From Candidatus Aenigmatarchaeota archaeon (GTDB lineage: Archaea; Aenigmatarchaeota; Aenigmatarchaeia; GW2011-AR5; JACRMX01): 56,175 nt of DNA. Below are positions 18,507-46,451 of the stretch, one piece after another. How positions within the stretch are numbered: position 1 is the first letter of the stretch; every line of letters starts with the position of its first letter. The translations under genes and the position numbers were made by a program. Under the pieces are notes generated by a model. That model searched no databases, was not told where the DNA came from, and worked only from the letters and a program-made list of their open reading frames with translations. The stretch covers positions 1-56,175 of the forward strand of contig JAGVVW010000002.1 of assembly GCA_018304635.1 (NCBI GenBank), written 5' to 3'.

Positions 18507-19601
18507 ATGAAAATTGTATCAGTTATTGGAGCCAGACCGAATTTTGTAAAAATCATACCAATAATTAATGAATCACGAAAACGTGGCCATGAACATATCT
18601 TAGTTCACACAGGACAACATTATGATTTTAGAATGAGCCAGATATTTTTTCAAGAACTGAAACTACCAAAACCAGATTATAATCTTAATATAAAAGCCAA
18701 CCATAAACACGGTGAGCAAACTGCTGAAATTTTGAAAAAAACAGAAAATGTTTTGGAGAAAGAAAAACCTGATGTGGTCATTGTTGTTGGTGATACCAAC
18801 AGTAGTCTTGGCGGTGCTCTGGCTGCAAAAAAATTAAACATTAAGGTGGTTCATGTTGAAGCAGGACTCAGAGCATATGACTTATCAATACCTGAAGAAG
18901 TTAACAGAATATTAATAGATGTGTGTAGTGATTTTCTTTTTTGTCCTACAGACACAGCTGTAAAAAATCTTAAGAATAGTAAAGATATAACTGGAAAATT
19001 TTGGAATGTTGGAAACATTTCAATCGACACCCTAATCCAAAACAAAAACCTAATACCTGAATGGCCTGAAAAAGGATATTGTATTTTTACAACACACCGA
19101 CCTGTTAACGTAGATAGACCAAAACGTCTTGAATTATTAATAGAAATTATAAACAGTGTGTCAGAAATGATTAAAATTATATTTCCAATTCATCCGCGAA
19201 CGAAAAAAATGATGCAAAAATATAAACTTATAAGCAAAATTAAAAAAAATGTAAAAGTCATAGAACCTTTGGGTTATTTGGACTTTCATAGTCTCCTTAA
19301 TAATTCATCAATTGTTATTACAGACAGCGGAGGAATAATAGCAGAAGCATGTTATAGAGGCATACCATGTTTAATAATGCCACAAAGCCTAAAAAAAACA
19401 AATTACAATTTAACTGAATGGACTGAAACACTCGGAAGAAACAGCATTTTCATTGGTCTTGACCAAAAAATAGCAGTTGAAAATGTTAAAAACTTTTTGA
19501 GACAAACTAATAATGGAGAAAGGAAACTTAAAAATCCTTATCCTGGATGGAATGGTAATTCAAGTAAAAAAATTTTTGATATTTTGGAAGGTGAATTATG
19601 A
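18507..19601 (+). CDS. UDP-N-acetylglucosamine 2-epimerase, non-hydrolysing type (WecB/WbpI-like)
   Basis: IVSVIGARPNFVKIIPI, VVGDTNSSLGGALAA, HVEAGLR and ITDSGGIIAEA. Confidence 0.85.
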   Translation: MKIVSVIGARPNFVKIIPIINESRKRGHEHILVHTGQHYDFRMSQIFFQELKLPKPDYNLNIKANHKHGEQTAEILKKTENVLEKEKPDVVIVVGDTNSSLGGALAAKKLNIKVVHVEAGLRAYDLSIPEEVNRILIDVCSDFLFCPTDTAVKNLKNSKDITGKFWNVGNISIDTLIQNKNLIPEWPEKGYCIFTTHRPVNVDRPKRLELLIEIINSVSEMIKIIFPIHPRTKKMMQKYKLISKIKKNVKVIEPLGYLDFHSLLNNSSIVITDSGGIIAEACYRGIPCLIMPQSLKKTNYNLTEWTETLGRNSIFIGLDQKIAVENVKNFLRQTNNGERKLKNPYPGWNGNSSKKIFDILEGEL

Positions 19602-21010
19602 TTGATTGTGCTTTAGTTTATCCAACACCAAGCTTAGATAGTCCTGCAAAGGGACCAGCTCTCAGCATCTTTTATCCGGGTGTTGTTTTAGAAAAATCAG
19701 GATTTGAAGTTGAGTATTCTGACGAGCGATTTGACAATAGACAGCATACTGAAAAATTGATAAAGAATAGTCTTGTTATCGGTGTATCCAGTATGACAGG
19801 ATTCCAACTCGGTGAAGCTCAACGAATACTTAAAACAGCAAAAGAGATAAACCCGAATATTATAACACTTCTGGGCGGCGTTCATCCATCAATGCTTCCC
19901 GACCAGTGTATTAGAGAGAGTTTCATCGATGTTGTCTGCGTTGGTGAAGGAGAAAGAACATTGTTGGAATTTATGAAGTGTATTAAAAAGAAAAAGAGTC
20001 TGAAAAATGTAAAAGGAATATTATGGAAGAATAATGGAAATATTATAAAAAATGAAAAAAGAGAATTGGTTGATATAAATAAAATACCATGGCCCGTCAC
20101 AAAAAAAAACAGGCATTATTTTAAAATAGCAGCAGACGCCAGTCAAATACGTTTGCTCTCAAGCAGGGGTTGCCCTCATAAATGTAGGTTTTGTTATAAT
20201 CAGATATTCAATAGAAGTACATGGAGACCGATGAACATCAAAAAACTGGAAAATGAACTGGATGCATATATCAGTGAATTCAAAATAAAAAAAATAATAC
20301 TGGGTGATGACAATATCGGACCTGTCAAAGAAAGAATCAAGAAAATATGCGGCTTAATGGAAGAACGGGGAATAACATGGCACACAGGAATACGTTGTGA
20401 ATACATAACAGATGAAATAGCCCAGACTCTTGATAAGAGTGGCTGCAGTAGCTTATTCTTTGGAGTTGAAAGTGGATCAAATAGAATATTAAATGAAATT
20501 ATAGGTAAAGGATATCCAGGTGGTGTAGAAAACATCAAGAACTGCGCTAGAATAATGAGCAAAACAAACATCACTGGAATGTATAGTTTCATGTGCGGTC
20601 TTCCTACAGAAACTATAAAAGAACTCATAATGAGTATGGAACTCGCAGACTGGATAAAGGAAACTGATAAAAATGCCAGAATAAGCTTTTATGTTTATGC
20701 TCCTTATCCAGGAACATCTTTATATAAAGAAGCAATTGAACAGGGATTTCAGGAACCATGTACAATTGACGAATGGACAAGAATTACACTTAGCAGCGAA
20801 CGTAACCCTAAAATGGAAAATTTATATTACATATCTGGTCTGAATTTCAGAAAGGATAAAACCGGACAAAATTTTCCAGGTTTGAAAAGATTTAGCATAA
20901 AACCATTTGAACTATCAGCATCATTGAGATGGAAAACCAGAATAACAGGATTTTACTGGGAAAAAAGAATTATAAAATATCTTCTTGCAAAAGCCTCAAA
21001 AGGCGATTAA
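19598..21010 (+). CDS. B12-binding-domain radical SAM protein (paralogue 1)
   Basis: N-terminal Rossmann-like B12-binding region (VIGVSSMTGF...LLGGVHPS...VCVGEGE), then the cluster motif SSRGCPHKCRFCYN. Confidence 0.8.
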   Translation: MIDCALVYPTPSLDSPAKGPALSIFYPGVVLEKSGFEVEYSDERFDNRQHTEKLIKNSLVIGVSSMTGFQLGEAQRILKTAKEINPNIITLLGGVHPSMLPDQCIRESFIDVVCVGEGERTLLEFMKCIKKKKSLKNVKGILWKNNGNIIKNEKRELVDINKIPWPVTKKNRHYFKIAADASQIRLLSSRGCPHKCRFCYNQIFNRSTWRPMNIKKLENELDAYISEFKIKKIILGDDNIGPVKERIKKICGLMEERGITWHTGIRCEYITDEIAQTLDKSGCSSLFFGVESGSNRILNEIIGKGYPGGVENIKNCARIMSKTNITGMYSFMCGLPTETIKELIMSMELADWIKETDKNARISFYVYAPYPGTSLYKEAIEQGFQEPCTIDEWTRITLSSERNPKMENLYYISGLNFRKDKTGQNFPGLKRFSIKPFELSASLRWKTRITGFYWEKRIIKYLLAKASKGD

Positions 21011-22613
21011 AATGACTGGAAAGTGTAAATACAAAAATATAGATAATAAAGCCGTGAGATGGACAAAAGAATTCTCCTGGAAAAAAATAATAGACGGAAA
21101 AAACCTGGTTGAATTTTTAGAATACGAAAACACATCTCTCTGGTGGTCTATTGATATATACAATCTCACAACAAATATAATACGAGCAGTAGAATCTGAT
21201 AGAATAGATGAAATTATAGACAAAAAAAAATATTCCAAAAAAATAAAACCACTGAAACAGTGCAAAAGAAAGTTGAGAAGAGAAATTTCAAAATATATGA
21301 ACATATGTCAGAAAGAAAAGGTAACAAACCGTGAAAAAATTATTTTATTGTCAAACAATTCATTCTGGAGAAGCATAATTACAGAAAACGGCATGAAAAA
21401 ACACGACATCGCCTTTCATTATCTTATAGATAAAATTCAGGAGTATGATATCATAGGCCTGGATTTTGACACAACACGATCAATACCGATTGGAAATCTT
21501 ATAGAGAAAATCAGGGATAAAAAAATATTCTGGAAACTGGAAGAAGGCTACGTAGATAAAGACATAGAACAAAAAACAAACATATGGGAAAATATTCTTA
21601 AAGAAAGATGGAACAGACTGAGTGAAAACATGCATGCAAGAAATTCATTTACATATAATCAGATAAATATTTGGGATTTTATAAAAGGAAGATTGGAATA
21701 TATTTTTCTGATAAAGTTGCCAGAAGCTGTCAGAAACATAGAAATAATGAAAAGAATATTAGAAGAGGAAAATCCTAAAGCTGTCATTCTGAGTTATGAA
21801 ACCGGATCCATTGGAAGGGCAGCTTGTTACGCTTCGAAAATTAAAAAAATAAAGTCCATAGCGCTTCAGCATGGAGAATTGGGCATGTCTGATTATTACC
21901 ATACAAAAAATGAAATATCAGGTAAACTTTCGTGTCCAATACCCGATAAAACATGTGTTTATGGAAGTCTCTATAAAAAAATCTTGTTAAACTGTCTCTA
22001 TCCAAAAAATAAAATAAGCGTGGTGGGAAAACTCCAGTTAGATGCCTTTAAAAATTTACATTCAGACAGAAAACTGTTATGTAAAAAAATGAATCTGGAC
22101 CAGATGAAAAAAATTATCGTTTTTGCGTCTCAGCCACTTAATAAGAATCTGAATAACAAGATTGTGTTCGGAGTTATAAATGCAGTAAATAAAATAAAAT
22201 ATGCTGAACTCGTAATAAAAATTCATCCCGGTGAAAATCAGAATTTCTATGACAACATTATTAAAAACAATTCAAAAAACATATCTCTGGCAAAAGACAT
22301 TGATATACTTGGAATATTATGTCTGTCTGATATTTTAATAACAAAACATTCAACAGTAGCTATAGAAGCTGCTGCACTTGGAAAACCTGTTATAATATTT
22401 AACCCGTCAGGAGAACCTGACCCCATCAGTTATGTAAAGGATGGAATTGCTTTAGGAGCTTACAACGAACTTGAACTGAAAAAAAAACTAACAGATTTAC
22501 TGTATAACAAGAAAATTTCAAACTCATTTGAAAAACAGAGAAATGAAGCAATTAAAAAATATATTTATAAAAATGATGGAAAAACTGCTGAACGCATAGC
22601 TAAATTAATTTAA
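20985..22613 (+). CDS. GT-B-like transferase with an HP motif (TagF/KpsS/sialyltransferase-like); candidate nonulosonic-acid or phospho-sugar transferase
   Basis: The C-terminal half reads IIVFASQPL...AELVIKIHPGEN...DILITKHSTVAIEAAALGKPVIIFN, a Rossmann-like pattern with a conserved His-Pro. The likely start is ATG 21012, just after the upstream stop. The family assignment is tentative. Confidence 0.45.
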   Translation: MQKPQKAIKMTGKCKYKNIDNKAVRWTKEFSWKKIIDGKNLVEFLEYENTSLWWSIDIYNLTTNIIRAVESDRIDEIIDKKKYSKKIKPLKQCKRKLRREISKYMNICQKEKVTNREKIILLSNNSFWRSIITENGMKKHDIAFHYLIDKIQEYDIIGLDFDTTRSIPIGNLIEKIRDKKIFWKLEEGYVDKDIEQKTNIWENILKERWNRLSENMHARNSFTYNQINIWDFIKGRLEYIFLIKLPEAVRNIEIMKRILEEENPKAVILSYETGSIGRAACYASKIKKIKSIALQHGELGMSDYYHTKNEISGKLSCPIPDKTCVYGSLYKKILLNCLYPKNKISVVGKLQLDAFKNLHSDRKLLCKKMNLDQMKKIIVFASQPLNKNLNNKIVFGVINAVNKIKYAELVIKIHPGENQNFYDNIIKNNSKNISLAKDIDILGILCLSDILITKHSTVAIEAAALGKPVIIFNPSGEPDPISYVKDGIALGAYNELELKKKLTDLLYNKKISNSFEKQRNEAIKKYIYKNDGKTAERIAKLI

Positions 22614-22653
22614 GCTATATTTATATTTTTAATTCATTTTTATTTTACATGGG

Positions 22654-23358
22654 GTGATAAAAATGAATAAACCAATAATTCTGGGCATAATACCAGCACG
22701 TGGCGGATCAAAAGGCGTTATTAGAAAAAACCTGAAGCTGTTGGCAGGCAAACCACTTATAACGTATACAATAGAAGCTGCAAAAAAATCCCGGCTTTTG
22801 GACAGGTTTGTTGTTTCAACAGAAGACAAGGAAATTGCGGAAGTATCAAGAATGAATGGCGTAGAAGTTATTAACCGCCCCGTGGAATTAGCATCAGATC
22901 ATACACCGACAGAACCTGTTTTGCAGCATGTTGTAAAAGAATTAGAAAAAAAAGGATTCAAAACGGATATTATAGTAACTCTCCAGCCAACCTCTCCATT
23001 ACGAAAACCAGAAGATATTGATATGGTAATAGAATATCTGATTAAGTCAGATTCTGATTCTGTGATTACTATCAGTAATGTTGATTATCACCCGTGGTGG
23101 ATGAGAAAACTAGAAGGAGATAAAATTCTGCCGTTTATTAAACTGGAAAATGAACCAAAAAGACGCCAGGACCTGCCAAAAGTCTACAAAGAAAATGGTG
23201 CTGTTTTTGTAACAAAAAGAGATGTTCTCATGAATCAAAACAGTATATACGGAAACAATGTAAAAGGAATTATAATGGATGAAATAAGATCAATAGATAT
23301 TGATACAGAAAAGGACTTCATAATAGCTGAAACTATTTTAAAGAAGGGATTGGTTTGA
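22654..23358 (+). CDS. neuA: Acylneuraminate (nonulosonate) cytidylyltransferase, CMP-NulO synthetase
   Basis: ILGIIPARGGSKGVIRKNLKLLAGKPLITYTIEAA, then LQPTSPLR. This is the CTP_transf_3 signature. Confidence 0.85.
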   Translation: MIKMNKPIILGIIPARGGSKGVIRKNLKLLAGKPLITYTIEAAKKSRLLDRFVVSTEDKEIAEVSRMNGVEVINRPVELASDHTPTEPVLQHVVKELEKKGFKTDIIVTLQPTSPLRKPEDIDMVIEYLIKSDSDSVITISNVDYHPWWMRKLEGDKILPFIKLENEPKRRQDLPKVYKENGAVFVTKRDVLMNQNSIYGNNVKGIIMDEIRSIDIDTEKDFIIAETILKKGLV

Positions 23359-24389
23359 AAATAGGTAACAGATACTTAGGAGAAAATAAATCGGTTTTTA
23401 TTGTAGCTGAAGCTGGCGACAATCACAATGGTGATATAGAAATCGCAAAAAAATTAATAGAAGAAGCTCATAGAATAGGCGCAGACGCAATAAAATTTCA
23501 GACATGGAAGACAGAAAGAATAATGACAAAAAAATCTCCAGCAGCTGCTTACCAGAAGAATTTTGCAAAGAATCAATTTGAAATGGCAAAAAAACTGGAG
23601 TTAAGAGAAGATACATTCAGAGAATTGGCAAAATTTACAAAGAAAAAAGGTATTATTTTTCTTTCTACGCCGTTTGATGAAGAAAGCGTGGATTTTTTGG
23701 ATAGTCTGGTTCCTGCTTTCAAAATAGCATCTTCTGAAGTCACAAACACACCACTTTTAGAACACATCGCTAATAAGAAAAAACCAATAATACTTTCAAC
23801 CGGAATGAGCACCATGGAAGAAATTAGAGATGCAGTAGATATTATAAAAACCAGAACAACTGACATTATATTACTTCACTGTATTTCAAGCTATCCAACA
23901 AAAATATCAGATGTCAATATGAGAGTACTGAATACACTCAGGGAAAAATTCAATCTAAATATTGGATATTCAGACCACACAATAGGTATAGAGCCTGTTC
24001 TGATAGCGGTGTCACTTGGCGCAGTGTTAATAGAAAAACACTTTACTTTGGATAAAAATATGCAGGGCCCCGACCACAAGCTTTCATCAGACCCGGATGA
24101 ATTCAGAAAAATGATTGAACTTATAAGAAGAACGGAAAAAATTCTGGGATCTCCGGAAAAAAGAATCATTAATTCAGAAAAAGAAATAAGAAAGATAACC
24201 GGAAGAAGTATAGTAGCAAAAAAACCAATATCCAAAGGAACGGAAATAAGTATAGAAATAATTGATCTTAAAAGACCTTCAGGAGGACTAACAGCAAAAG
24301 ACTTAGAAAATGTATTGGGAAAAATAGCGCTGAAAAATATTGAGCAGGATGAAATAATTACATTTAAAAAATTAGGTGAGAAAAAATGA
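23355..24389 (+). CDS. neuB: N-acetylneuraminate/legionaminate/pseudaminate synthase family (NeuB-like) with C-terminal SAF domain
   Basis: FIVAEAGDNHNGD, DAIKFQT, STGMST, YSDHTIG, and a C-terminal SAF-like segment ISKGTEISIEIIDLKRP. It has a TTG start that overlaps the neuA stop. Confidence 0.85.
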   Translation: MKIGNRYLGENKSVFIVAEAGDNHNGDIEIAKKLIEEAHRIGADAIKFQTWKTERIMTKKSPAAAYQKNFAKNQFEMAKKLELREDTFRELAKFTKKKGIIFLSTPFDEESVDFLDSLVPAFKIASSEVTNTPLLEHIANKKKPIILSTGMSTMEEIRDAVDIIKTRTTDIILLHCISSYPTKISDVNMRVLNTLREKFNLNIGYSDHTIGIEPVLIAVSLGAVLIEKHFTLDKNMQGPDHKLSSDPDEFRKMIELIRRTEKILGSPEKRIINSEKEIRKITGRSIVAKKPISKGTEISIEIIDLKRPSGGLTAKDLENVLGKIALKNIEQDEIITFKKLGEKK

Positions 24390-27123: not shown

Positions 27124-27127
27124 TCTA

Positions 27128-28528: not shown

Positions 28529-28558
28529 TTTTAAATAGATTTTACAGATATAGTTTTC

Positions 28559-29206
28559 ATGAACTCAGATGAAATATGGAATGAAATATATAAAAAACAT
28601 GGTTTCAGGGCAAAATACCCGGATGAGAACTTGATTCGCTTCATATCTACAAAATTCAGAAATGTTCCTGATAAAAAATCCCTGAAAGTGCTTGATCTGG
28701 GTTGCGGCCCGGGAAGACATATAATATTTCTAGCTAACCAGAAATTTTCTGTATATGGAATAGATGCATCAGAAACTGCAATTAAAATGGCAAAAAATTT
28801 TATTGAAGAAAACAATATAACAGCTGATATTAGAATCAGTGAAATGCCGCCATTGCCATATGAAAATGATTATTTTGACTTAATAATCGATTGTGCATCA
28901 ATACAGCATATTAAAGTTGATAAAATGAACAGGATTTTCTCGGAAATTTACAGGATTCTTAAAACCGGAGGTATGTTTTTCTCTATTATCAGGTCAATGG
29001 ATGATTACATTTCCTCATCCAAACAAATTGCTAATAATACATTTTTTAATTTGGATGACAATACGGGTGAAATACATTTATTTGATGAGGCTGAAATAAG
29101 AAGTCTTCTGAAAAATTTTACTGAACTTAATATTGAACACGAAACCAGAACTTTTGAAAACATGTCAAAAAAAAGATGTAATTGGATAATCGCAGCAAAA
29201 AAGTGA
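28559..29206 (+). CDS. Class I SAM-dependent methyltransferase
   Basis: Motif I VLDLGCGPGRH, then VYGIDAS, DLIIDCASIQH and LKTGGMFF. Confidence 0.8.
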   Translation: MNSDEIWNEIYKKHGFRAKYPDENLIRFISTKFRNVPDKKSLKVLDLGCGPGRHIIFLANQKFSVYGIDASETAIKMAKNFIEENNITADIRISEMPPLPYENDYFDLIIDCASIQHIKVDKMNRIFSEIYRILKTGGMFFSIIRSMDDYISSSKQIANNTFFNLDDNTGEIHLFDEAEIRSLLKNFTELNIEHETRTFENMSKKRCNWIIAAKK

Positions 29207-29210
29207 TATA

Positions 29211-30263
29211 ATGACTGAAATAGAGATTCTTACAGTAAATGAAAGCAAAAGGTGGGGAGAATTAATCAATGATCTGCCGCAGAAAGACATACACTTTACC
29301 TCCCAATATGCCCAACTTTTTGAGAATTACTTAAAACACAAAGCTTTGCTCTTTGTATTTAAAGAAAATGATAATGTAATTTTATATCCTTTCTTCATAA
29401 GAAAAATAAATGATATAGAAATATTCAAAGATATTGAAAAAGAAGTTTTTGACATTATTTCGCCGTGGTATTACGGTGGTCCTGTAAGCAACATAACAGA
29501 CAAAAGCAGAGAAAAAGAAATATTCCAAAATTTTACAGCTGAATTTGGAAATTTTTGCAGGAGTGAGAAGATTGTATCTGAATTTTGCAGAATGCATCCG
29601 TTTTTTAAAAATCATGATAATTTTTCAGCCCCTGAACTCGAAATGAACAGGAAAGTTGTCTACATAGATCTAAAAAAAACAAAGGAAGAAATATGGAACA
29701 GTTTTAAAAAAGTTAATAGAAAAGCAATAAGAAAGGCGGAAAAAGGTGGTATAGATATTTCTATAACAAACAACAAATCTGGTATTAAGAAGTTTTATGA
29801 CATCTATACAAATTCAATGGAAAGAAAAGAAGCTGGAAAGTTTTATTTCTTCAATATTGAATTTTTCAATGATATGTTCGAGCTTCTCAAAGATTCAGCA
29901 ACAATATTTTTTGCTGAACATGGGGGTAATGTTATTGTTGCGTCATTGGTTCTGCATAAACACGGAATTGCACATGATTATTTGAGGGGGTCTGATCCTG
30001 AATTTTTACATATGAGACCTAACAACCTGATAGTAAAAGAAATAGCACTCTGGGCAAAAGATAATGGAAATGAGATATTCGACCTGGGCGGCGGAACCAG
30101 CACAGATACAAATGATCCAAAACTAAGATTTAAATCATTGTTCTCAAAGGATAGAAAACGCTTTTTTATTTATAAAAAGATTCACAACAAAAGTGTATAC
30201 GATGAACTCTGTAAAAAACAATGTAATATAACAGGAAATTTTCCTCTGTATAGGTGTGTTTAA
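29211..30263 (+). CDS. FemAB-like / Acetyltransf_6 (GNAT-fold) aminoacyl- or acyl-transferase
   Basis: SFKKVNRKAIRKAEKGGI...FFAEHGGNVIVASLVLHKHGIAHDYLRGSDPEFLHMRPNNLIVKEIALWAKDNGNEIFDLGG resembles the FemX/FemAB-type transferase pattern. Confidence 0.7.
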   Translation: MTEIEILTVNESKRWGELINDLPQKDIHFTSQYAQLFENYLKHKALLFVFKENDNVILYPFFIRKINDIEIFKDIEKEVFDIISPWYYGGPVSNITDKSREKEIFQNFTAEFGNFCRSEKIVSEFCRMHPFFKNHDNFSAPELEMNRKVVYIDLKKTKEEIWNSFKKVNRKAIRKAEKGGIDISITNNKSGIKKFYDIYTNSMERKEAGKFYFFNIEFFNDMFELLKDSATIFFAEHGGNVIVASLVLHKHGIAHDYLRGSDPEFLHMRPNNLIVKEIALWAKDNGNEIFDLGGGTSTDTNDPKLRFKSLFSKDRKRFFIYKKIHNKSVYDELCKKQCNITGNFPLYRCV

Positions 30264-31603
30264 TGAAGGTATTGTTGGTATATCCGAGATTTAAATATGA
30301 AAATTCCGGGGGTCTTCAGGAACCTCTCGGAATTCTTTACATAGCGAGTGTCCTGAGAAAGTCAGGCCACGATGTCTCATTCATAGACCTGACGTTTGAA
30401 AAAGATTTCAGTAAATTAAATAAAGAAACACTTGACGTAGACTTAATCGGAATGAGCTCGACAACAGCGCTCTTCGGAACAGCAAAAGAAGTTTTGAAGC
30501 ATATGAAATCAATAAACCCGGAATTAAAAGTTGCAATTGGAGGACCGCATCCGACAGTAATGACTGATGATGTACTTGACGCTGGATTTGATTATTCAGT
30601 AATTGGAGAAGGTGAAAAAATAATTCTTGAGTTATTGAATGGAATAAAAAAAGGCAAAATAAGTGATGTAAAGGGGATAGCTTATAGAATAAGAAACAAA
30701 ACAAAAATAAACAAATCGTGCGAATTCATAGAAAATCTCGATTCTATACCATTTCCAGCAAGAGATATGATAAACTGGGATGAATATAATATATCTGACA
30801 TGGGACTGATTATAACACGTGGCTGCCCATACAACTGTCTCTATTGTAAGCCTATGCAAAATAAATTGTTCGGAAAAAAAATAAGAAAAAGAAGCTCTGA
30901 AAATGTAGCTGATGAAATAGAAGAAATAGCAAAGATTTATGGAGTAAAAAGTTTTTTCTTTAAGGACGATACATTTAGTGCTTGTGGAGAAGAATGGATA
31001 AAGATATTCGGAAATGAAATTGAAAAAAGAAACCTGAAAATATCATGGACATGTCAGACAAGAGTCAATGAGGTAACTGAAGGATTTTTAAAAGCAATGA
31101 AAGATGCTGGATGCAGGCTCATATCTTTTGGTGTTGAAAGTGGTTCACAGAAAATATTGAATTTTTATAGAAAGGGAATAACAACAGAACAGACAAAAGA
31201 AGCATTTAAGCTATGCAAGAAAGTTGGGATACTAACACATGCATATATCATGCTTGGCGCGCCAATTGAAACAGAAGAAGATATGGAAATGACATATCAG
31301 CTGATAAAGGAAATAAAACCATATAGCGTTCAGGTAAGCATCACAACACCTGCTCCGGGAACGGATCTTGGAGAATATGTAAAAAATCAGGGAATTCTTA
31401 ATATTCATAACAATCTGGAAACGGATTATTATGCAAACGAATATCCCATCAAACTACAATATCTGACACCAGAAAAGTTAAAAATTTACAGGAAAAAAAT
31501 CTATAGGTACATGCTATTTAAAAATGCCTTTTCAAAAAGAGGTATAATCACAGCTATTAGAAATCCTGGAAAAGCATTTAGATATATGAAAAAAAGGCTA
31601 TGA
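30254..31603 (+). CDS. B12-binding-domain radical SAM protein (paralogue 3)
   Basis: LIGMSSTTALF...AIGGPHPT...SVIGEGE, then ITRGCPYNCLYCK. The likely start is ATG 30263, which overlaps the upstream TAA (TAATG). Confidence 0.8.
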   Translation: MCLMKVLLVYPRFKYENSGGLQEPLGILYIASVLRKSGHDVSFIDLTFEKDFSKLNKETLDVDLIGMSSTTALFGTAKEVLKHMKSINPELKVAIGGPHPTVMTDDVLDAGFDYSVIGEGEKIILELLNGIKKGKISDVKGIAYRIRNKTKINKSCEFIENLDSIPFPARDMINWDEYNISDMGLIITRGCPYNCLYCKPMQNKLFGKKIRKRSSENVADEIEEIAKIYGVKSFFFKDDTFSACGEEWIKIFGNEIEKRNLKISWTCQTRVNEVTEGFLKAMKDAGCRLISFGVESGSQKILNFYRKGITTEQTKEAFKLCKKVGILTHAYIMLGAPIETEEDMEMTYQLIKEIKPYSVQVSITTPAPGTDLGEYVKNQGILNIHNNLETDYYANEYPIKLQYLTPEKLKIYRKKIYRYMLFKNAFSKRGIITAIRNPGKAFRYMKKRL

Positions 31604-31621
31604 TTTCGGCAGGGAATTTAA

Positions 31622-32770
31622 ATGAACTGGAAAATACCATTGTTTAAATGTTATTGGGAAGACGATGATATAGAATCAGTAAATAACGTAATTAAAAGAG
31701 GAACATATTGGGCCACTGGACCTGAAATCAAAAATTTTGAAACGAATATAGCCAAATATGTAGGTGCAAAATACGCATTGGTGTTTAATTCAGGAACATC
31801 AGCACTTCATGCGGATATATCGGCTCACGAAATTGGAAAAGACGACGAAGTTATTTTGCCATCATTCACATTTGTGTCCACATCAAATAGTGTTGCATTA
31901 ACTGGTGCAAAACCAGTATTCGCTGAAATTGAAGATCAGTCATATGGTCTGGATCCTGCAGATGTTGAAAGAAAAATAACTGATAAAACCAAAGCCATTA
32001 TTCCTGTTCATTATGCGGGCGCTCCGTGTAAAGAAATAAAAACTTTGAAAAAAATCGCTGATAAAAACGGTCTTATTCTCATAGAAGATGCTGCTGAATC
32101 ATTGGGTTCAAAAATCGGAACCAGATTTGTAGGAACATTCGGCAACTCAGCGATGTTTAGTTTCTGCCAGAATAAAATCATAACCACGGGTGAAGGTGGC
32201 GCTATAGTAACTAATTCAGAAAAAATCTATGAAAAATTAAAGTTAATCAGATCACACGGACGGCTGGAAAGAACTGACGATTATTTTTCAACTACAAAAG
32301 AAATGGACTATATACAGCTAGGATATAATTACAGAATATCTACAATATCAGCTGCTTTAGGAATTTCGCAATTGAAAAAAATAGACAAGATAATAAGTAT
32401 GAGAAGGAAAATTGCAGAATATTTTAACAGGATATTTTCCGAAATTAATGGAATAAAAATACCCGAAACACCAGAAGATCATTTTCACATTTATCAGATA
32501 TACACTATCCGATTAAGAGATAAAAAAATCAGGGATATGATGCAAAAATTTTTAATAAAAAGGGGGATAATGAATAAGGTATATTTTGACTCTGTGCATC
32601 TCAAGACATTTTACAGAAAATTGGGATATAAGGAAGGAAACTTGCCTAAAACCGAGAACATATCCGAAAGGGTACTGTCTCTGCCAATATACCCCAGTAT
32701 GAATCCGGAAGAAATGATATATATAACAAATTCCATTAAGGAATTTTTCAAATTATATATAAAAATTTAA
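31622..32770 (+). CDS. DegT/DnrJ/EryC1-family PLP-dependent sugar aminotransferase (PseC/LegC-like)
   Basis: NSGTSALHA, EDAAESLGS and FSFCQNKIITTGEGGAIVT (PLP lysine context). Confidence 0.85.
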   Translation: MNWKIPLFKCYWEDDDIESVNNVIKRGTYWATGPEIKNFETNIAKYVGAKYALVFNSGTSALHADISAHEIGKDDEVILPSFTFVSTSNSVALTGAKPVFAEIEDQSYGLDPADVERKITDKTKAIIPVHYAGAPCKEIKTLKKIADKNGLILIEDAAESLGSKIGTRFVGTFGNSAMFSFCQNKIITTGEGGAIVTNSEKIYEKLKLIRSHGRLERTDDYFSTTKEMDYIQLGYNYRISTISAALGISQLKKIDKIISMRRKIAEYFNRIFSEINGIKIPETPEDHFHIYQIYTIRLRDKKIRDMMQKFLIKRGIMNKVYFDSVHLKTFYRKLGYKEGNLPKTENISERVLSLPIYPSMNPEEMIYITNSIKEFFKLYIKI

Positions 32771-32803
32771 TTGAAATTATAATAAGCAACATCAGGTGTT
32801 GAA

Positions 32804-33817
32804 ATGGACAATACATTTAGAAATAAAAAAATTCTTGTCACTGGAGGCACAGGCTCCATTGGTAGTGAAATAGTCGTGCAATTATTAAAATATAATCCAG
32901 AAGCCATAAGAATATTCAGTAGGGATGAAACAAAACAATTCAATCTAAAACATGAACTCGGTGAACGTGATAATGTAAGATATTTAATAGGTGATGTAAG
33001 GGATAAAGACAGGTTAAGAAAAGCTGTGGAAGATATAGATATAATTTTCCATGCAGCAGCTCTGAAACATGTTCCTGCTTGTGAATATAATCCCTTTGAA
33101 GCTGTTAAAACAAATGTAATCGGAACCCAGAACATAATTGATGTGGCACTTGACGAAAATGTAGAAAAGGTTATTGCTATAAGTTCTGATAAGGCTTCAA
33201 GCCCGACAAACACAATGGGAGCCTCAAAACTACTTTCTGAAAAAATTGTCGTATCTGCTCACTATCACAGGGGAAAAAAACAAACTGCTTTTTCATGTGT
33301 CAGGTTCGGTAATGTCCTGAATTCTCGCGGATCTGTGGTACCGTTGTTTGTGAATCAGATTAAAAATAAATCAATGATAACAATTACAGATCCTGATATG
33401 ACTAGATTCATGATGACCCTGCCACAAGCTGTTAAACTTGTATTTGAAGCTGCGAGAATTTCCAGAGGTGGAGAAATTTTTATCCTTAAAATGCCTTCAC
33501 TCAGATTAGGTGATCTGGCTGATGTAGTTAAAGAACAAATAGGAATGAAATGCGAGATTCATCCGGAAACAATAAAAACAGAGATTATTGGAATAAGACC
33601 GGGAGAACGTATGCATGAGGATCTGATGACAGAGGATGAATCTAAAATAGCCAAAGAAACTGAAAATATGTTTATAATACCACCAAACCTGGTGGCTTCT
33701 GATTATGTATATGATGGATCCAAACCTGTTATGATTAGCAAATACACTTCAAATCAGCAAACACTGATGTCAAAACAACAAATAATTGACATGCTAAAAA
33801 CAGAGGGCATTATTTGA
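32804..33817 (+). CDS. pseB: UDP-N-acetylglucosamine 4,6-dehydratase, PseB/FlaA1/CapD type
   Basis: ILVTGGTGSIGSE, FSRDETKQ, GDVRD, HAAALKHVPACEYNPFEAVKTNVIGTQN, SSDKASSPTNTMGASKL and RFGNVLNSRGSVVPLF. Confidence 0.8.
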   Translation: MDNTFRNKKILVTGGTGSIGSEIVVQLLKYNPEAIRIFSRDETKQFNLKHELGERDNVRYLIGDVRDKDRLRKAVEDIDIIFHAAALKHVPACEYNPFEAVKTNVIGTQNIIDVALDENVEKVIAISSDKASSPTNTMGASKLLSEKIVVSAHYHRGKKQTAFSCVRFGNVLNSRGSVVPLFVNQIKNKSMITITDPDMTRFMMTLPQAVKLVFEAARISRGGEIFILKMPSLRLGDLADVVKEQIGMKCEIHPETIKTEIIGIRPGERMHEDLMTEDESKIAKETENMFIIPPNLVASDYVYDGSKPVMISKYTSNQQTLMSKQQIIDMLKTEGII

Positions 33818-33831
33818 AAGTAAAAAATTAG

Positions 33832-34725
33832 GTGCATCCAATGGAAATGAGAATAAAGAGACGGGTAAATACAATTAAAAGAAAGTTGTTCATTTCGCAG
33901 CAACCACATGTACTTCATATAGAAATAAATAACACATGCAACCTGCACTGTATAATGTGTCCAAGAGAAAGAATGAATAGAAAACCAGGTATTATGAATT
34001 TTGAAACATATAGAAAAATAATTGATGATGCTGCATCTATAGACGTACCGCATGTCAGGCTTTTTATGTTCGGTGAACCTTTACTGCATCCAAAATTAAT
34101 AGAAATGATAAAATATGCCAAATCTAAAAATATACCAAAAGTTGACTTCAATACAAATGCCACCTTACTTAATAAAAAGATATCACGTGAAATAATAGAT
34201 TCTGGCTTGGATAGGATAATTTTTTCAGTTGATGGCATTAATAAAAAAACATATGAATCTGTAAGGCGCGGTGGAAAATATCAAAAAGTTGTTAAAAATA
34301 TTGAATATTTTATGCAACTTAAAAATAACTTAAGCAGGGGACCGCATACAATTCTCCAGACAATAGTAATGAACCAGACCAAACCTGAAATCACATCATT
34401 TGAAGGTAAATGGAAAAGTGTTGTTGACGAAGTGTCTGTAACTGAACTGAACACCTATGGCGGAATGTATAAATTTTCAAATAAAGAAAAAACCAATAAA
34501 AGACAGGCATGTAATCAATTATGGGACAGACTGATTGTTTTATGCAATGGCGTTGTAACGGTTTGCTGTGAAGATTATAATGGTATGTTAGCTATCGGAC
34601 ATGTGGATGATGGCATCAGGAAACTCTGGAAAAATGAAAAAATAAAACATCTACGGAATCTGCACCTTAAGCAGGATTTCGGTAGTATACCATTATGTGA
34701 TAAATGCGATGCAACATGGATGTGA
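33832..34725 (+). CDS. Radical SAM protein with SPASM-type C-terminal Cys-rich domain
   Basis: EINNTCNLHCIMCPRE (CxxxCxxC). The C-terminal ACNQLWDRLIVLCNGVVTVCCEDYNG...PLCDKCDA is consistent with auxiliary Fe-S cluster (SPASM/twitch) motifs. Confidence 0.8.
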   Translation: MHPMEMRIKRRVNTIKRKLFISQQPHVLHIEINNTCNLHCIMCPRERMNRKPGIMNFETYRKIIDDAASIDVPHVRLFMFGEPLLHPKLIEMIKYAKSKNIPKVDFNTNATLLNKKISREIIDSGLDRIIFSVDGINKKTYESVRRGGKYQKVVKNIEYFMQLKNNLSRGPHTILQTIVMNQTKPEITSFEGKWKSVVDEVSVTELNTYGGMYKFSNKEKTNKRQACNQLWDRLIVLCNGVVTVCCEDYNGMLAIGHVDDGIRKLWKNEKIKHLRNLHLKQDFGSIPLCDKCDATWM

Positions 34726-34731
34726 TAGATA

Positions 34732-35394
34732 TTGAAATTAGTAATAATATCAGATTCCATGGCCATGGAAAGACCGGAAACAGGAAAAACAGAAATATAT
34801 CCACATCTTCTTGAAAAGAATCTATCAAAAAAACGTGTTAAAATAAATATCAAAGTTTTTGCTGAACGTCGGTTCACGACAACAGAAGCTGTCAATATCT
34901 TAGATAGAGTCAAAAAGTTTAAATCTGAAATCATCGTACTTCATCTTGGAATATGTGATTGTGCTGCACGTATTCTTGACCTGAAACAGCGGGAAAAAGT
35001 TGCCAGAATGCCGAAACCTGTCAGATGGATCATTACAAAATTTTTAAGTACATTCAGACGCCAGATACTGCTTATTTTTGGTTCACGTGTATGGGTAAAA
35101 AAGGCGGAATTTGAACAAAACATTCTAAGAATAATAAATGAACTGAAACGAGAAAGTTTTATTCTGATCAATATAGCACCAACTGACAAAAAAACATCCA
35201 CACATTCACCGGGGCTTAAAAGAAATATAGAAGAATACAACAAAATAATTCAGAAAATAGCATTAGAAAGAAGTGTTAAATTAATTCAGATGGAAAATCT
35301 GATAGATTCAGAAAAGCATATGCTGGATGGTATTCATTTAAACAAAATAGGTCATGAAATTTTAGCTAAAGAACTGGCAAAACTAATATCTTGA
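34732..35394 (+). CDS. SGNH/GDSL-like hydrolase (candidate O-acetyl esterase/transferase)
   Basis: Block I-like VIISDSMA and block V DGIHLNKIGHEILAKEL. It has a TTG start. Confidence 0.65.
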   Translation: MKLVIISDSMAMERPETGKTEIYPHLLEKNLSKKRVKINIKVFAERRFTTTEAVNILDRVKKFKSEIIVLHLGICDCAARILDLKQREKVARMPKPVRWIITKFLSTFRRQILLIFGSRVWVKKAEFEQNILRIINELKRESFILINIAPTDKKTSTHSPGLKRNIEEYNKIIQKIALERSVKLIQMENLIDSEKHMLDGIHLNKIGHEILAKELAKLIS

Positions 35395-37323: not shown

Positions 37324-37326
37324 AAC

Positions 37327-38784: not shown

Positions 38785-38800
38785 GTTCATTAATAAAACA

Positions 38801-39886: not shown

Positions 39887-39889
39887 GAT

Positions 39890-46399: not shown

Positions 46400-46451
46400 G
46401 ATGGTTGTAGTAATTATGTCATTCATTATAGTTAGCCCTGACGCTTTCCAT

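What the first reader, a model, noticed from the sequence alone, without database searches (positions are those of the whole stretch)
19598..35394. Nonulosonic-acid gene cluster loaded with four radical SAM enzymes (three B12-binding paralogues plus one SPASM type): candidate undescribed sugar-tailoring pathway
Seen: interleaved with neuA/neuB/neuC-like and pseC/pseB-like genes are three paralogous proteins.
- They lie at 19598-21010, 25534-27123 (with a C-terminal TPR) and 30254-31603.
- Each has an N-terminal cobalamin-binding-type Rossmann region (GG[VMP]HP[ST], GEGE).
- Each has a CxxxCxxC cluster (CPHKCRFC, CPIGCTFC, CPYNCLYC).
- A fourth radical SAM protein (33832-34725; CNLHCIMC) has a SPASM-like C-terminal Cys cluster.
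- DUF362, a SAM MTase, a FemAB-like transferase and an SGNH hydrolase complete the string.
- All are co-directional, with 1-4 nt overlaps or gaps of a few tens of nt at most, so they are presumably one operon.

Established: B12-dependent radical SAM enzymes methylate or rearrange unactivated carbons, for example in aminoglycoside and phosphonate antibiotics. Radical SAM enzymes also build archaeal lipid rings and the calditol head group. None belongs to the canonical Neu/Leg/Pse pathways.

Inference: the locus probably makes a heavily tailored nine-carbon or diamino sugar (C-methylated, cyclised and/or aminoacylated) for the cell surface. I am not aware of a described pathway of this kind.
Basis: partly seen in the sequence, partly recalled or inferred. 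Interest (0 to 1): 0.8.

Follow-up and report, generated by a model that had tools for sequence, protein, structure and literature searches.

The report
Sialic-acid-like sugar operon with radical enzymes
An archaeal operon for a sialic-acid-like surface sugar carries four radical SAM enzymes, and two of them sit beside the same sugar genes in many unrelated uncultured microbes, which points to an undescribed way of decorating these sugars.

Summary

The region is the distal part of a 23-gene, same-strand glycan operon (12642-35394) in an archaeon, probably DPANN.

The three "paralogues" are about 30% identical. They are three separate class B subfamilies, and none reaches any NCBIfam cutoff.
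- **rSAM2 (TPR):** in 14 of 18 orthologue clusters it lies beside NeuB/NeuC, against 2 of 120 for more distant relatives (Fisher p = 7e-14). It usually travels with a FemX-like transferase. The hosts range from Pacearchaeota to Planctomycetota. One Woesearchaeota protein fuses it to a DegT domain.
- **rSAM1:** its orthologues follow NeuB-NeuC in three independent loci and travel with WbqC and a PIG-L deacetylase.
- **rSAM3:** its relatives sit in general glycan clusters, two of them next to AglB.
- **SPASM enzyme:** it most resembles the sugar-acting enzymes BtrN and BlsE.

Searches of the held literature found no paper linking rSAM enzymes to nonulosonic acid synthesis.

Most likely the locus makes a legionaminic-type sugar whose skeleton or N-acyl groups are radically modified, probably C-methylated. 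The chemistry itself is untested.

The parts
12642..13367 (+). GT2 glycosyltransferase, first gene of the same-strand string
   Evidence: Pfam Glycos_transf_2 118 bits. Gene calls come from identical contigs.
13369..13908 (+). Hexapeptide N-acetyltransferase (WbpD/WlbB-like)
   Evidence: Pfam Hexapep 98.2 bits.
13912..14976 (+). DegT aminotransferase of the diacetamido-uronic acid module
   Evidence: Pfam DegT 418 bits.
14984..15958 (+). GFO/IDH/MocA oxidoreductase, like archaeal UDP-GlcNAc 3-dehydrogenase
   Evidence: NF040723 340 bits, below the 450 cutoff.
15963..17216 (+). Nucleotide-sugar 6-dehydrogenase (UDP-ManNAc dehydrogenase-like)
   Evidence: TIGR03026 320.9 bits, above the 189.8 cutoff.
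17213..17839 (+). PIG-L family N-deacetylase, a conserved partner of rSAM1
   Evidence: Pfam PIG-L 74.7 bits. It co-occurs with rSAM1 orthologues in L174, L177 and L178.
17824..18498 (+). WbqC-family protein (function unknown), a conserved partner of rSAM1
   Evidence: Pfam WbqC 245.3 bits. It lies directly after rSAM1 orthologues in L172, L174, L177 and L178.
18507..19601 (+). Non-hydrolysing UDP-GlcNAc 2-epimerase (WecB)
   Evidence: TIGR00236 291.3 bits, above the 210.15 cutoff.
19598..21010 (+). rSAM1: class B (B12-binding domain) radical SAM enzyme of a NulO/WbqC-associated subfamily
   Evidence: Pfam. About 65 orthologues at 40-62% identity. C192/C196/C199 and the GG-H and GEGE motifs are conserved. 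The AlphaFold model has pLDDT 92.8, with top folds TsrM, OxsB and MgmA. Synteny is shown.
21012..22613 (+). GT-B glycosyltransferase, a distant relative of the Tannerella NulO transferase (BFO_1060 family)
   Evidence: NF046086 94.8 bits (cutoff 200) and TIGR04396 70.9 bits (cutoff 125), both over the C-terminal half only. The role of BFO_1060/Tanf_01245 is taken from PMC5420450.
22654..23358 (+). CMP-NulO synthetase (NeuA/PseF/LegF-like)
   Evidence: Pfam CTP_transf_3 98.2 bits. TIGR03584 PseF 174.8 bits, below the 205.7 cutoff.
23355..24389 (+). NulO synthase (NeuB/LegI type)
   Evidence: TIGR03569 413.9 bits, above the 399.65 cutoff. PseI 298.9 bits, below the 340.25 cutoff.
24386..25537 (+). 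Hydrolysing 2-epimerase (NeuC/LegG type)
   Evidence: TIGR03568 387.6 bits, above the 235.9 cutoff.
25534..27123 (+). rSAM2: class B radical SAM enzyme with a C-terminal TPR, from a NeuB/NeuC- and FemX-like-associated subfamily
   Evidence: Pfam. Orthologues are listed. A fusion with DegT (P0013) is shown. The AlphaFold model has pLDDT 93.6 and a class I B12-rSAM fold. The N-domain aligns to TokK. The nearest NCBIfam is Sden_1168 at 282 bits, below the 575 cutoff.
27128..28528 (+). DUF362 protein of unknown role, specific to this strain's cluster
   Evidence: Pfam DUF362 103.6 bits. It has no sequence relative in the PDB. It is not found in the other NulO loci.
28559..29206 (+). Class I SAM methyltransferase
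   Evidence: Pfam Methyltransf_25 76 bits. Homologues lie next to rSAM2 orthologues in L007, L009, L097, L095, L092 and L011.
29211..30263 (+). FemX-like (FemAB/Acetyltransf_6) transferase, putative N-aminoacyl or N-acyl transferase replacing LegH
   Evidence: Pfam Acetyltransf_6 55.4 bits and FemAB 51.5 bits. PDB FemX E = 3.5e-11 over residues 165-335. It co-occurs with rSAM2 orthologues in 11 of 18 clusters and in 0 of 120 distant ones.
30263..31603 (+). rSAM3: class B radical SAM enzyme of a subfamily found in general and AglB-type glycan clusters
   Evidence: Pfam. Homologues reach at most 53% identity. Contexts are L167, L169, L170 and L179. C188/C192/C195 are invariant.
31622..32770 (+). 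DegT aminotransferase (PseC/LegC-like)
   Evidence: Pfam DegT 381 bits. PseC 313.6 bits, below the 423.5 cutoff. LegC 265.5 bits, below the 420 cutoff.
32804..33817 (+). UDP/GDP-HexNAc 4,6-dehydratase (PseB-like, Polysacc_synt_2)
   Evidence: Pfam 367.7 bits. TIGR03589 364.4 bits, below the 407.75 cutoff.
33832..34725 (+). Radical SAM enzyme with a SPASM/twitch-like C-terminal Cys domain
   Evidence: Pfam Radical_SAM 75.1 bits and SPASM 38.5 bits. CNLHCIMC and six C-terminal Cys are seen. The nearest solved structures are BtrN (E = 2e-12) and BlsE (E = 1e-9). The family is large, with 1647 representatives at E < 1e-30.
34732..35394 (+). SGNH/GDSL hydrolase (possible O-acetyl esterase or transferase), last gene of the string
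   Evidence: Pfam Lipase_GDSL_2 39.7 bits, above the 32.9 cutoff.

Best explanation
**What the region is**

The flagged region is the distal two-thirds of one archaeal surface-glycan operon (12642-35394, 23 genes). The operon contains four kinds of function.
- A module for a UDP-2,3-diacetamido-uronic acid.
- A legionaminic-acid-type nonulosonic acid (NulO) pathway. It comprises a PseB-like 4,6-dehydratase, a DegT aminotransferase, a FemX-like transferase in place of the usual LegH acetyltransferase, the NeuC/LegG hydrolysing epimerase, the NeuB/LegI synthase and a CMP-synthetase.
- A GT-B enzyme distantly related to the Tannerella NulO transferase.
- Four radical SAM tailoring enzymes.

**What is shown**

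rSAM2 and rSAM1 belong to two distinct, so far unnamed class B subfamilies whose orthologues are syntenic with NeuB-NeuC in both archaea and bacteria. Each travels with an N-acyl remodelling partner. rSAM2 travels with the FemX-like enzyme and often a class I methyltransferase. rSAM1 travels with WbqC and a PIG-L deacetylase.

**What is inferred**

- rSAM1 and rSAM2 are cobalamin-dependent radical C-methyltransferases. They methylate unactivated carbons of the NulO precursor, or more specifically of the N-acyl/aminoacyl groups their partner enzymes install, before CMP activation.
- rSAM3 belongs to a subfamily seen in general glycan clusters and may modify another sugar.
- The SPASM enzyme resembles BtrN/BlsE and oxidises, decarboxylates or epimerises a sugar carbon.
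- The SGNH protein handles O-acetyl groups.
- The product is a heavily decorated CMP-NulO that is transferred to the cell-surface glycan.
For: **Domains and motifs**
- Domain assignments.
- Invariant CxxxCxxC, GG-H and GEGE motifs.

**rSAM2 linkage**
- NeuB/NeuC linkage in 14 of 18 orthologue clusters against 2 of 120 for distant relatives, p = 6.6e-14.
- FemX-like co-occurrence in 11 of 18 against 0 of 120.
- The hosts are Pacearchaeota, Nanoarchaeia, Planctomycetales, Thermodesulfobacteriota and Oligoflexia.
- The rSAM2-TPR-DegT fusion P0013 sits in the order NeuB-NeuC-fusion-FemX-like-DegT-dehydratase.

**rSAM1 linkage**
- L174, L177 and L178 show NeuB-NeuC-rSAM1-WbqC-PIG-L.
- L173 has NeuA/B/C within 10 kb.
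- L172 has PglD/DegT/PglF-type genes plus WbqC.

**Legionaminic-type pathway**
- PtmE-like CBS-nucleotidyltransferases, a marker of the Leg pathway, occur in L095 and L013.

**Fold and sequence of the class B enzymes**
- Confident models match class I B12-rSAM enzymes.
- The N-domain aligns to TokK.

**Other components**
- FemX similarity.
- SPASM enzyme nearest to BtrN and BlsE.
- SPASM rSAMs recur beside NeuB in L008, L009, L097 and L177.
- GT2 fusions of relatives of rSAM3 and rSAM1 (P0165, P0319).
- BFO_1060 family members transfer Pse/Leg derivatives onto ManNAcA (PMC5420450). This fits the uronic-acid module upstream.

**Established knowledge**
- Most characterised class B rSAMs are C-methyltransferases, including the sugar-acting GenK, GenD1 and MoeK5 (PMC9204698 and PMC12931638).
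Against: - No biochemical or glycan data exist for this organism or for any orthologue.
- None of the three class B proteins reaches any NCBIfam cutoff, so their chemistry cannot be transferred from a known family.
- The best fold and sequence match of rSAM2 is AprD4. AprD4 does not use cobalamin and is a diol dehydratase (PMC12931638).
- Two rSAM2 orthologues with full 10-kb flanks (L094, L012) lack NeuB/NeuC.
- rSAM3's closest homologues are not NeuB-linked.
- Only six rSAM1 contexts were examined.
- The idea that the N-acyl groups are the targets rests on co-occurrence alone.
- A DPANN-type host would probably have to import cobalamin (my own knowledge).
Confidence: 0.65

Rival explanations
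1. The class B-type enzymes are not methylases. They carry out other radical chemistry on the sugar skeleton. Candidates are AprD4-like 1,2-diol dehydration (deoxygenation), HpnJ/OxsB-like ring contraction, and epimerisation. The result would be a NulO with an altered backbone rather than added methyl groups.
For: - AprD4 with its aminoglycoside substrate is the top sequence and fold match for rSAM2 and the top sequence match for rSAM3.
- HpnJ and BchE are the best NCBIfam hits for rSAM1 and rSAM3.
- An SDR gene sits in the L007 and L087 blocks. It could play the part of AprD3.
Against: - All those scores are far below the family cutoffs (AprD4 95-99 against 500; HpnJ 124-203 against 577).
- The AprD4 N-domain does not align in sequence, whereas TokK's cobalamin domain does.
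- The top folds for rSAM1 are true cobalamin enzymes.
- The window has no SDR next to rSAM2.
Confidence: 0.2
2. Some or all of the rSAM enzymes act on other parts of the same glycan and are near the NulO genes only because the whole glycan is encoded in one locus. Possible targets are the diacetamido-uronic acid, hexoses or the lipid carrier.
For: - rSAM3's best homologues lie in AglB/GT/methyltransferase clusters without NeuB.
- L170 holds six class B rSAMs in a glycan cluster without NeuB.
- In the window, rSAM1, PIG-L and WbqC sit inside the uronic-acid module.
- L172 and L094 lack NeuB.
Against: - For rSAM2 and rSAM1 the adjacency is specifically to NeuC/NeuB.
- It recurs across phyla in loci that lack the uronic-acid genes, namely L007, L175, L174, L177 and L178.
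- Distant relatives do not show the linkage.
Confidence: 0.12
3. The FemX-like enzyme, the TPR-bearing rSAM2 and the methyltransferase build or modify a peptide or protein rather than the sugar. An example would be side-chain C-methylation, as done by MgmA/QCMT or PoyC.
For: - MgmA (9CCB) is among the closest structures.
- TPR domains mediate protein contacts.
- Fem-family enzymes make peptide bonds.
Against: - No precursor peptide or RiPP gene was seen.
- The partner genes are consistently nucleotide-sugar enzymes.
- The rSAM2 fusion is to a sugar aminotransferase domain.
- FemX itself acts on a UDP-sugar-peptide.
Confidence: 0.03

Closest known systems
Legionaminic acid pathway (LegB/C/H/G/I/F of Campylobacter jejuni; Leg loci of Tannerella forsythia UB4 and Halorubrum sp. 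PV6)
   Same: - A 4,6-dehydratase, a DegT aminotransferase, a NeuC-type hydrolysing 2-epimerase, a NeuB-type synthase and a CMP-synthetase are all present.
- PtmE-like CBS-nucleotidyltransferases occur in the related loci L095 and L013.
- A BFO_1060-like transferase lies next to the cluster.
   Different: - There is no LegH/PglD-type acetyltransferase in the NulO segment. A FemX-like enzyme stands in its place.
- The dehydratase and aminotransferase score closer to the PseB/PseC models, but below their cutoffs.
- Four rSAM enzymes, DUF362 and a methyltransferase are interleaved. None of them belongs to the canonical pathway.
Class B rSAM C-methyltransferases of sugar-containing natural products (GenK, GenD1, Fms7, MoeK5, Fom3)
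   Same: They share the architecture of an N-terminal cobalamin-type Rossmann domain followed by an rSAM barrel. They also act in a sugar-modifying context.
   Different: - No family-level membership was found. All NCBIfam scores are far below cutoff.
- The known enzymes act in antibiotic pathways of cultured bacteria, not in cell-surface NulO loci of archaea and uncultured bacteria.
SD_1168 (Sden_1168 family, NF038361) of Shewanella denitrificans
   Same: It is the nearest curated family for rSAM2 and for all its NulO-linked orthologues (220-282 bits).
   Different: - The 575-bit cutoff is not reached.
- SD_1168 lacks a known physiological substrate (PMC9204698).
- Its genomic context could not be retrieved here.
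AprD4 (rSAM 1,2-diol dehydratase of apramycin biosynthesis, PDB 6FD2)
   Same: It is the best sequence and fold match of the rSAM2 core, and it acts on an amino sugar.
   Different: - AprD4 does not bind cobalamin (PMC12931638).
- Its N-domain does not align with rSAM2 in sequence.
- NF033070 scores 98.7 against a cutoff of 500.
BtrN and BlsE (twitch/SPASM rSAM enzymes acting on aminocyclitol or sugar carbons)
   Same: They are the closest solved structures to the fourth rSAM enzyme. They have the same layout of an rSAM core followed by an auxiliary Cys domain.
   Different: Similarity is only 41-50 bits and is confined to the N-terminal core. The BlsE family score is 49.8 against a cutoff of 400.
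FemX (Weissella viridescens UDP-MurNAc-pentapeptide:L-alanine transferase)
   Same: The size and double-GNAT layout match. Sequence similarity over residues 165-335 gives E = 3.5e-11. FemX also uses a nucleotide-sugar-linked amine as acceptor.
   Different: NF047883 scores 47.5 against a cutoff of 500. The donor (aminoacyl-tRNA or acyl-CoA) and the acceptor are both unknown.

Membership tests
Class B (cobalamin-dependent) radical SAM enzymes | CxxxCxxC motif for the [4Fe-4S]/SAM site inside a Radical_SAM domain | tested here: met
   PF04055 scores 70.5, 79.9 and 89.4 bits. The three Cys are invariant in the orthologue alignments A2, A3 and A4.
Class B (cobalamin-dependent) radical SAM enzymes | N-terminal Rossmann-type B12-binding domain | tested here: met
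   - PF02310 scores 64.5, 88.9 and 83.1 bits against a cutoff of 32.1.
- The rSAM2 N-domain aligns to the TokK cobalamin domain.
- Models with pLDDT 93.6 and 92.8 match TsrM, OxsB, MgmA, CysS and TokK.
Class B (cobalamin-dependent) radical SAM enzymes | Actual cobalamin binding and methyl transfer | not testable with these tools
   AprD4 shows that this fold can occur without cobalamin (PMC12931638). Purified protein would be needed.
Sden_1168 family P-methyltransferase (NF038361) | Whole-protein score at or above the curated cutoff of 575 bits | tested here: not met
   rSAM2 scores 282.2 bits. Nine orthologues or relatives score 223-283 bits.
HpnJ (TIGR03471), BchE (TIGR02026), AprD4 (NF033070), MJ_0865/QCMT (TIGR04014) | Score at or above each curated cutoff | tested here: not met
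   The best scores are HpnJ 202.7 against 577.6, BchE 189.1 against 481, AprD4 98.7 against 500, and QCMT 140.4 against 360.
Legionaminic/neuraminic-type NulO pathway | NeuB/LegI-type synthase and NeuC/LegG-type hydrolysing 2-epimerase | tested here: met
   TIGR03569 scores 413.9 against 399.65. TIGR03568 scores 387.6 against 235.9.
Legionaminic/neuraminic-type NulO pathway | LegB, LegC and LegH equivalents (dehydratase, aminotransferase, N-acetyltransferase) | tested here: inconclusive
   - A dehydratase and an aminotransferase are present, but both fall below every equivalog cutoff. LegB scores 76.7 against 475, LegC 265.5 against 420, PseB 364.4 against 407.75, and PseC 313.6 against 423.5.
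- No hexapeptide acetyltransferase lies in 19598-35394. A FemX-like enzyme is present instead.
Pseudaminic acid pathway | PseI synthase and PseG UDP-sugar hydrolase | tested here: not met
   PseI scores 298.9 against a cutoff of 340.25. No PseG was found. A NeuC-type epimerase is present instead.
SPASM/twitch radical SAM enzymes | Radical_SAM core plus a C-terminal auxiliary-cluster Cys domain | tested here: met
   PF04055 scores 75.1 and PF13186 scores 38.5 against a cutoff of 21.5.
SPASM/twitch radical SAM enzymes | Canonical seven-Cys SPASM pattern (two auxiliary clusters) | tested here: inconclusive
   Only six Cys are present (C-x10-C-x6-CC ... C-x2-C). The number of clusters cannot be decided from sequence.
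FemABX aminoacyl-tRNA-dependent transferases | Fem-type double-GNAT fold; aminoacyl-tRNA as donor | tested here: inconclusive
   Domain-level hits are above cutoff (FemAB 51.5 against 24; Acetyltransf_6 55.4 against 22), and PDB FemX gives E = 3.5e-11. The equivalog models are far below cutoff, and the donor cannot be tested.
BFO_1060 family NulO transferase (NF046086) | Score at or above the 200-bit cutoff | tested here: not met
   The score is 94.8 bits and covers only the conserved C-terminal domain. This is a functional analogy only.

The most novel reading that the evidence does not exclude
rSAM1 and rSAM2 define two new, widely distributed subfamilies of cobalamin-dependent radical SAM enzymes dedicated to nonulosonic acids. 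With their partners (a FemX-like enzyme; WbqC plus PIG-L) they would make a class of sialic-acid-like sugars not yet seen in any structure. These would be NulOs carrying C-methylated or otherwise radically modified N-acyl/aminoacyl groups or carbon skeletons. Such sugars would be displayed on the surfaces of DPANN archaea, Planctomycetota, Thermodesulfobacteriota, Chloroflexota and other uncultured anaerobes.
Probability: 0.5. Interest if true: 0.8.

Novelty: new variant of a known kind. Interest (0 to 1): 0.7.

Why it matters
- **Biology of these sugars.** Nonulosonic acids are the outermost sugars of many microbial surfaces. They shape recognition by hosts, phages and partner cells. Their known diversity comes from N- and O-acyl variation made by ordinary transferases.
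- **A new layer of diversity.** A conserved partnership with radical SAM enzymes would add carbon-level chemistry to that repertoire.
- **Function for unnamed enzymes.** It would assign a biological context to two large unnamed branches of the class B rSAM superfamily, most of which has no known function. It might also hint at the physiological role of the SD_1168 branch.
- **Cofactor dependence.** It suggests that surface glycans of episymbiotic DPANN archaea depend on cobalamin and on anoxic radical chemistry.
- **Testability.** The compact blocks NeuB-NeuC-rSAM2-FemX-like-DegT-dehydratase (L175, about 8 kb) and NeuB-NeuC-rSAM1-WbqC-PIG-L (L178) are small enough to test directly by heterologous expression.

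Tried and rejected
- **Exact-sequence look-up of rSAM3.** Using the long GTG start found nothing. The gene is called from 30263.
- **Family assignment.** NCBIfam placed none of the four rSAM proteins, DUF362, WbqC or SGNH in a curated family.
- **Sden_1168 membership of the NulO-linked clade.** Nine orthologues and relatives were tested. All fall below the cutoff, so this was rejected.
- **SD_1168 primary paper.** Its genomic context could therefore not be checked.
- **Cultured carriers on plasmids.** tblastn of rSAM2 and rSAM1 found only relatives at 33% identity or less.
- **Literature.** Searches for rSAM together with nonulosonic, legionaminic or pseudaminic acid, neuB or aglB gave only incidental co-mentions. 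A search for WbqC gave nothing functional.
- **Phosphonate or P-methylation reading.** This was suggested by the Sden_1168 name. It was rejected because no PEP mutase or other phosphonate gene is in the window.
- **Foreign cassette.** GC content is even (0.31-0.34) across 12-42 kb, so there is no compositional sign of insertion.
- **RNA features.** No tRNA and no Rfam match was found in the window.
- **SPASM homologue contexts.** The contexts of the best SPASM homologues could not be fetched with the allowed look-ups.

Full report

Yes. Pfam places a B12-binding domain (PF02310) and a Radical_SAM domain (PF04055) above gathering thresholds in three proteins.

| Gene | B12-binding (bits) | Radical_SAM (bits) | Other |
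|---|---|---|---|
| 19598-21010 | 64.5 | 70.5 | |
| 25534-27123 | 88.9 | 79.9 | C-terminal TPR |
| 30254-31603 | 83.1 | 89.4 | |

The protein of 33832-34725 has Radical_SAM (75.1) and SPASM (38.5).

The quoted motifs are all present (GG[VMP]HP[ST], GEGE, CPHKCRFC, CPIGCTFC, CPYNCLYC, CNLHCIMC). The cluster cysteines, the GG-H motif and the GEGE motif are invariant or nearly so in alignments of 17-24 orthologues of each class B protein.

The neighbours are as described:
- a CMP-transferase;
- NeuB (TIGR03569 413.9, cutoff 399.65);
- NeuC (TIGR03568 387.6, cutoff 235.9);
- DUF362, a class I methyltransferase and a FemAB/Acetyltransf_6 protein;
- a PseC-like DegT aminotransferase and a PseB-like dehydratase;
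- an SGNH hydrolase.

Gene calls on identical metagenome contigs and the ORF table show 4-nt overlaps or gaps of at most about 50 nt throughout.

**2. Corrections to the anatomy**

The same-strand string begins at 12642, not 19598. Upstream lie the following genes:
- a GT2 glycosyltransferase;
- a hexapeptide acetyltransferase, a DegT aminotransferase, a GFO oxidoreductase, a nucleotide-sugar dehydrogenase and WecB, which is the familiar route to a UDP-2,3-diacetamido-uronic acid;
- a PIG-L deacetylase and a WbqC protein.

The gene after rSAM1 (21012-22613) is a GT-B enzyme. Its C-terminal half resembles the BFO_1060 family (94.8 bits, cutoff 200). In Tannerella forsythia, members of that family transfer Pse or Leg derivatives onto a ManNAcA residue (PMC5420450).

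The three class B proteins are only 28-32% identical to one another (profile-profile identity 27%). Each has orthologues at 50-62% identity in other phyla. They are therefore three subfamilies, not recent paralogues.

The host is an archaeon. Prefoldin beta passes its cutoff, and archaeal Hsp20 and SepF are present. GC content is about 33%. The closest named relatives of the genes are in Pacearchaeota, Nanoarchaeia and Woesearchaeota, so a DPANN host is likely. That is an inference.

**3. Comparative genomics of rSAM2**

I scanned 185,579 species genomes and the JGI metagenome contigs for relatives (160 loci). I then searched all window proteins against the six-frame ORFs of each locus.

After collapsing proteins at least 90% identical, 18 clusters carry an rSAM2 orthologue (480 bits or more).
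- 14 of the 18 have NeuB and/or NeuC within 10 kb, mostly as a contiguous same-strand NeuB-NeuC-rSAM2 block.
- 11 of the 18 have the FemX-like gene.
- Of 120 clusters with more distant relatives, 2 have NeuB/NeuC and none has the FemX-like gene (Fisher p = 6.6e-14).

Two of the four exceptions are contigs of 3 kb or less. L094 and L012 are true exceptions.

The carriers include Pacearchaeota (L007), Nanoarchaeia (L008), Planctomycetales (L009), Thermodesulfobacteriota (L011) and Oligoflexia (L013).

The recurring block is NeuA-(MTase)-NeuB-NeuC-rSAM2-(short DegT-like)-FemX-like-DegT-dehydratase. It has no LegH/PglD-type acetyltransferase.

In a Woesearchaeota contig, rSAM2, its TPR and the DegT-like domain are fused into one 848-aa protein in the same block (P0013).

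L095 and L013 carry a CBS-nucleotidyltransferase of the PtmE type. From my own knowledge this is a marker of the GDP-linked legionaminic acid route.

**4. Comparative genomics of rSAM1**

About 65 orthologues at 40-62% identity exist in MAGs of Chloroflexota, Micrarchaeota, Margulisiibacteriota, Patescibacteria and Deltaproteobacteria. Five contexts were read.
- L174, L177 and L178 show NeuB-NeuC-rSAM1-WbqC-PIG-L, followed by a hexapeptide acetyltransferase (L177 and L178 only), a DegT enzyme and a dehydratase.
- L173 has NeuA, NeuB and NeuC 5-10 kb downstream.
- L172 has PglD-, DegT- and PglF-type genes and WbqC, but no NeuB within 10 kb.

So rSAM1, WbqC and PIG-L form a conserved triad tied to NulO or bacillosamine-type sugars.

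**5. rSAM3 and the SPASM enzyme**

rSAM3's best homologues (470-496 bits) sit among glycosyltransferases, class I methyltransferases and sugar epimerases. Two of them lie next to AglB/STT3. None has NeuB nearby. One relative is fused to a GT2 domain (P0165). rSAM3 is therefore glycan-associated but not NulO-specific.

The SPASM enzyme belongs to a large family (1647 representatives at E < 1e-30). Its nearest solved structures are BtrN and BlsE, both of which act on sugar-type carbons.

Weaker SPASM relatives lie between or beside NeuB and NeuC in L009, L097, L177 and L008. The contexts of its closest homologues could not be fetched.

No other locus combined rSAM1-type and rSAM2-type enzymes. 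The window is an unusually loaded composite.

**6. What kind of enzymes are they?**

None of the class B proteins reaches any curated NCBIfam cutoff.
- rSAM2 and its orthologues are nearest to the Sden_1168 family (223-283 bits against 575). The physiological substrate of that family's founding enzyme is unknown (PMC9204698).
- rSAM1 and rSAM3 are nearest to HpnJ and BchE, far below cutoff.

AlphaFold models are confident (pLDDT 93.6 and 92.8).
- rSAM2 matches AprD4, TsrM, MgmA (9CCB), OxsB, CysS and TokK, in that order.
- rSAM1 matches TsrM, OxsB and MgmA ahead of AprD4.

AprD4 does not bind cobalamin (PMC12931638), so the fold alone does not prove cobalamin use. However, the rSAM2 N-domain aligns in sequence to TokK's cobalamin domain and not to AprD4's N-domain.

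The FemX-like protein aligns to Weissella FemX (E = 3.5e-11).

**7. Mechanism**

Shown:
- the gene content of a Leg-type NulO route;
- conserved synteny of rSAM2 with NeuB/NeuC and the FemX-like gene;
- conserved synteny of rSAM1 with NeuB/NeuC, WbqC and PIG-L.

Inferred:
- The dehydratase and aminotransferase make a nucleotide-linked 4-amino-4,6-dideoxy-HexNAc.
- The FemX-like enzyme acylates that amine, possibly with an amino acid.
- NeuC releases the 2-epimerised free sugar, NeuB condenses it with PEP, and the CMP-transferase activates it.
- rSAM2, with the class I methyltransferase, and rSAM1, with PIG-L and WbqC, modify the sugar or its two N-substituents by radical chemistry. This is most likely C-methylation, the commonest activity of the class (PMC9204698, PMC12931638).
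- The SPASM enzyme and SGNH add further changes.
- The GT-B enzyme transfers the product, perhaps onto the uronic acid made by the upstream module.

I put about 0.8 on a NulO-tailoring role for rSAM1 and rSAM2. I put about 0.55 on methylation and about 0.35 on the N-acyl groups being the targets.

**8. Rivals**

- Non-methylating chemistry, either AprD4-like deoxygenation or HpnJ/OxsB-like rearrangement, is the main rival (0.2).
- Action on other sugars of the same glycan is likely for rSAM3 and possible for the SPASM enzyme. It is unlikely for rSAM1 and rSAM2 (0.12 overall).
- A peptide substrate is unlikely (0.03).
- A phosphonate reading was rejected because no phosphonate genes are present.

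**9. Novelty**

NulO pathways and class B rSAMs are each well known. Their conserved pairing is not described in the 8.3 million papers searched. Two recent reviews of B12-rSAM enzymes do not mention it.

From memory, TIGRFAM notes mention a B12-rSAM in an oligosaccharide cassette (TIGR04295). That is a lead, not a test, and the window proteins score only 56-76 bits against it.

I rate this a new variant of a known kind. It is of real interest to glycobiologists and rSAM enzymologists, and it can be tested directly.

Noticed in passing
window 10818-12282 (- strand): An AbiEii toxin (PF08843, 99.9 bits) and an AbiEi-like antitoxin gene lie on the opposite strand. They sit between the first glycosyltransferase genes and the long glycan operon.
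   Followed up: no
window 45053-49086: There are three PMT_2 (GT-C) membrane glycosyltransferase paralogues. One is on the + strand and two are on the - strand. No AglB/STT3 gene occurs anywhere in the window.
   Followed up: partly
window 36393-42267 (+ strand): A second same-strand glycan string follows the operon. It holds another SGNH protein, a Wzx-type flippase, a GT4 enzyme, a methyltransferase and a 568-aa protein with no family hit.
   Followed up: no
window 53544-55967 (- strand): An 807-aa protein has only a C-terminal SHOCT domain hit. Three neighbouring ORFs (49350-50963, 51623-53077, 40561-42267) have no Pfam or NCBIfam hit.
   Followed up: no
L170 1-20498 and L171 (groundwater metagenome): One glycan cluster holds six class B rSAM genes. 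It also holds a 636-aa fusion of a class I methyltransferase with an rSAM/SPASM enzyme, among GT2, GT4 and PMT_2 genes.
   Followed up: no
L009 5981-13271 (Planctomycetales MAG) and L097: There are tandem duplicate rSAM2 orthologues (605 and 564 bits). A 479-aa rSAM/SPASM gene is inserted between NeuB and NeuC.
   Followed up: partly
L175 3363-5909 (Woesearchaeota, P0013): An 848-aa protein fuses rSAM2, the TPR and a DegT-like domain. In L007 and L087 the DegT-like part is a separate, short (303 aa) ORF that matches only part of the DegT profile.
   Followed up: partly
L177 1894-6746: A 596-aa NeuB-CMP-transferase fusion lies next to a 697-aa class B rSAM and a 339-aa SPASM rSAM. This locus also has NeuB-NeuC-rSAM1-WbqC-PIG-L, and sulfate-activation and sulfatase-type genes lie downstream.
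   Followed up: no
L094 9222-11599: An rSAM2 orthologue (529 bits) has a WbqC gene directly upstream and two DegT genes nearby, but no NeuB/NeuC within 10 kb. WbqC may therefore be interchangeable with the FemX-like partner.
   Followed up: no
literature: Campylobacter fetus CFT03427_1545 and _1558: Phase-variable genes annotated as MoaA/NifB/PqqE/SkfB-family rSAM enzymes are listed among SDR and methyltransferase genes. This may be an unstudied parallel in a cultured pathogen (PMC6321876).
   Followed up: no
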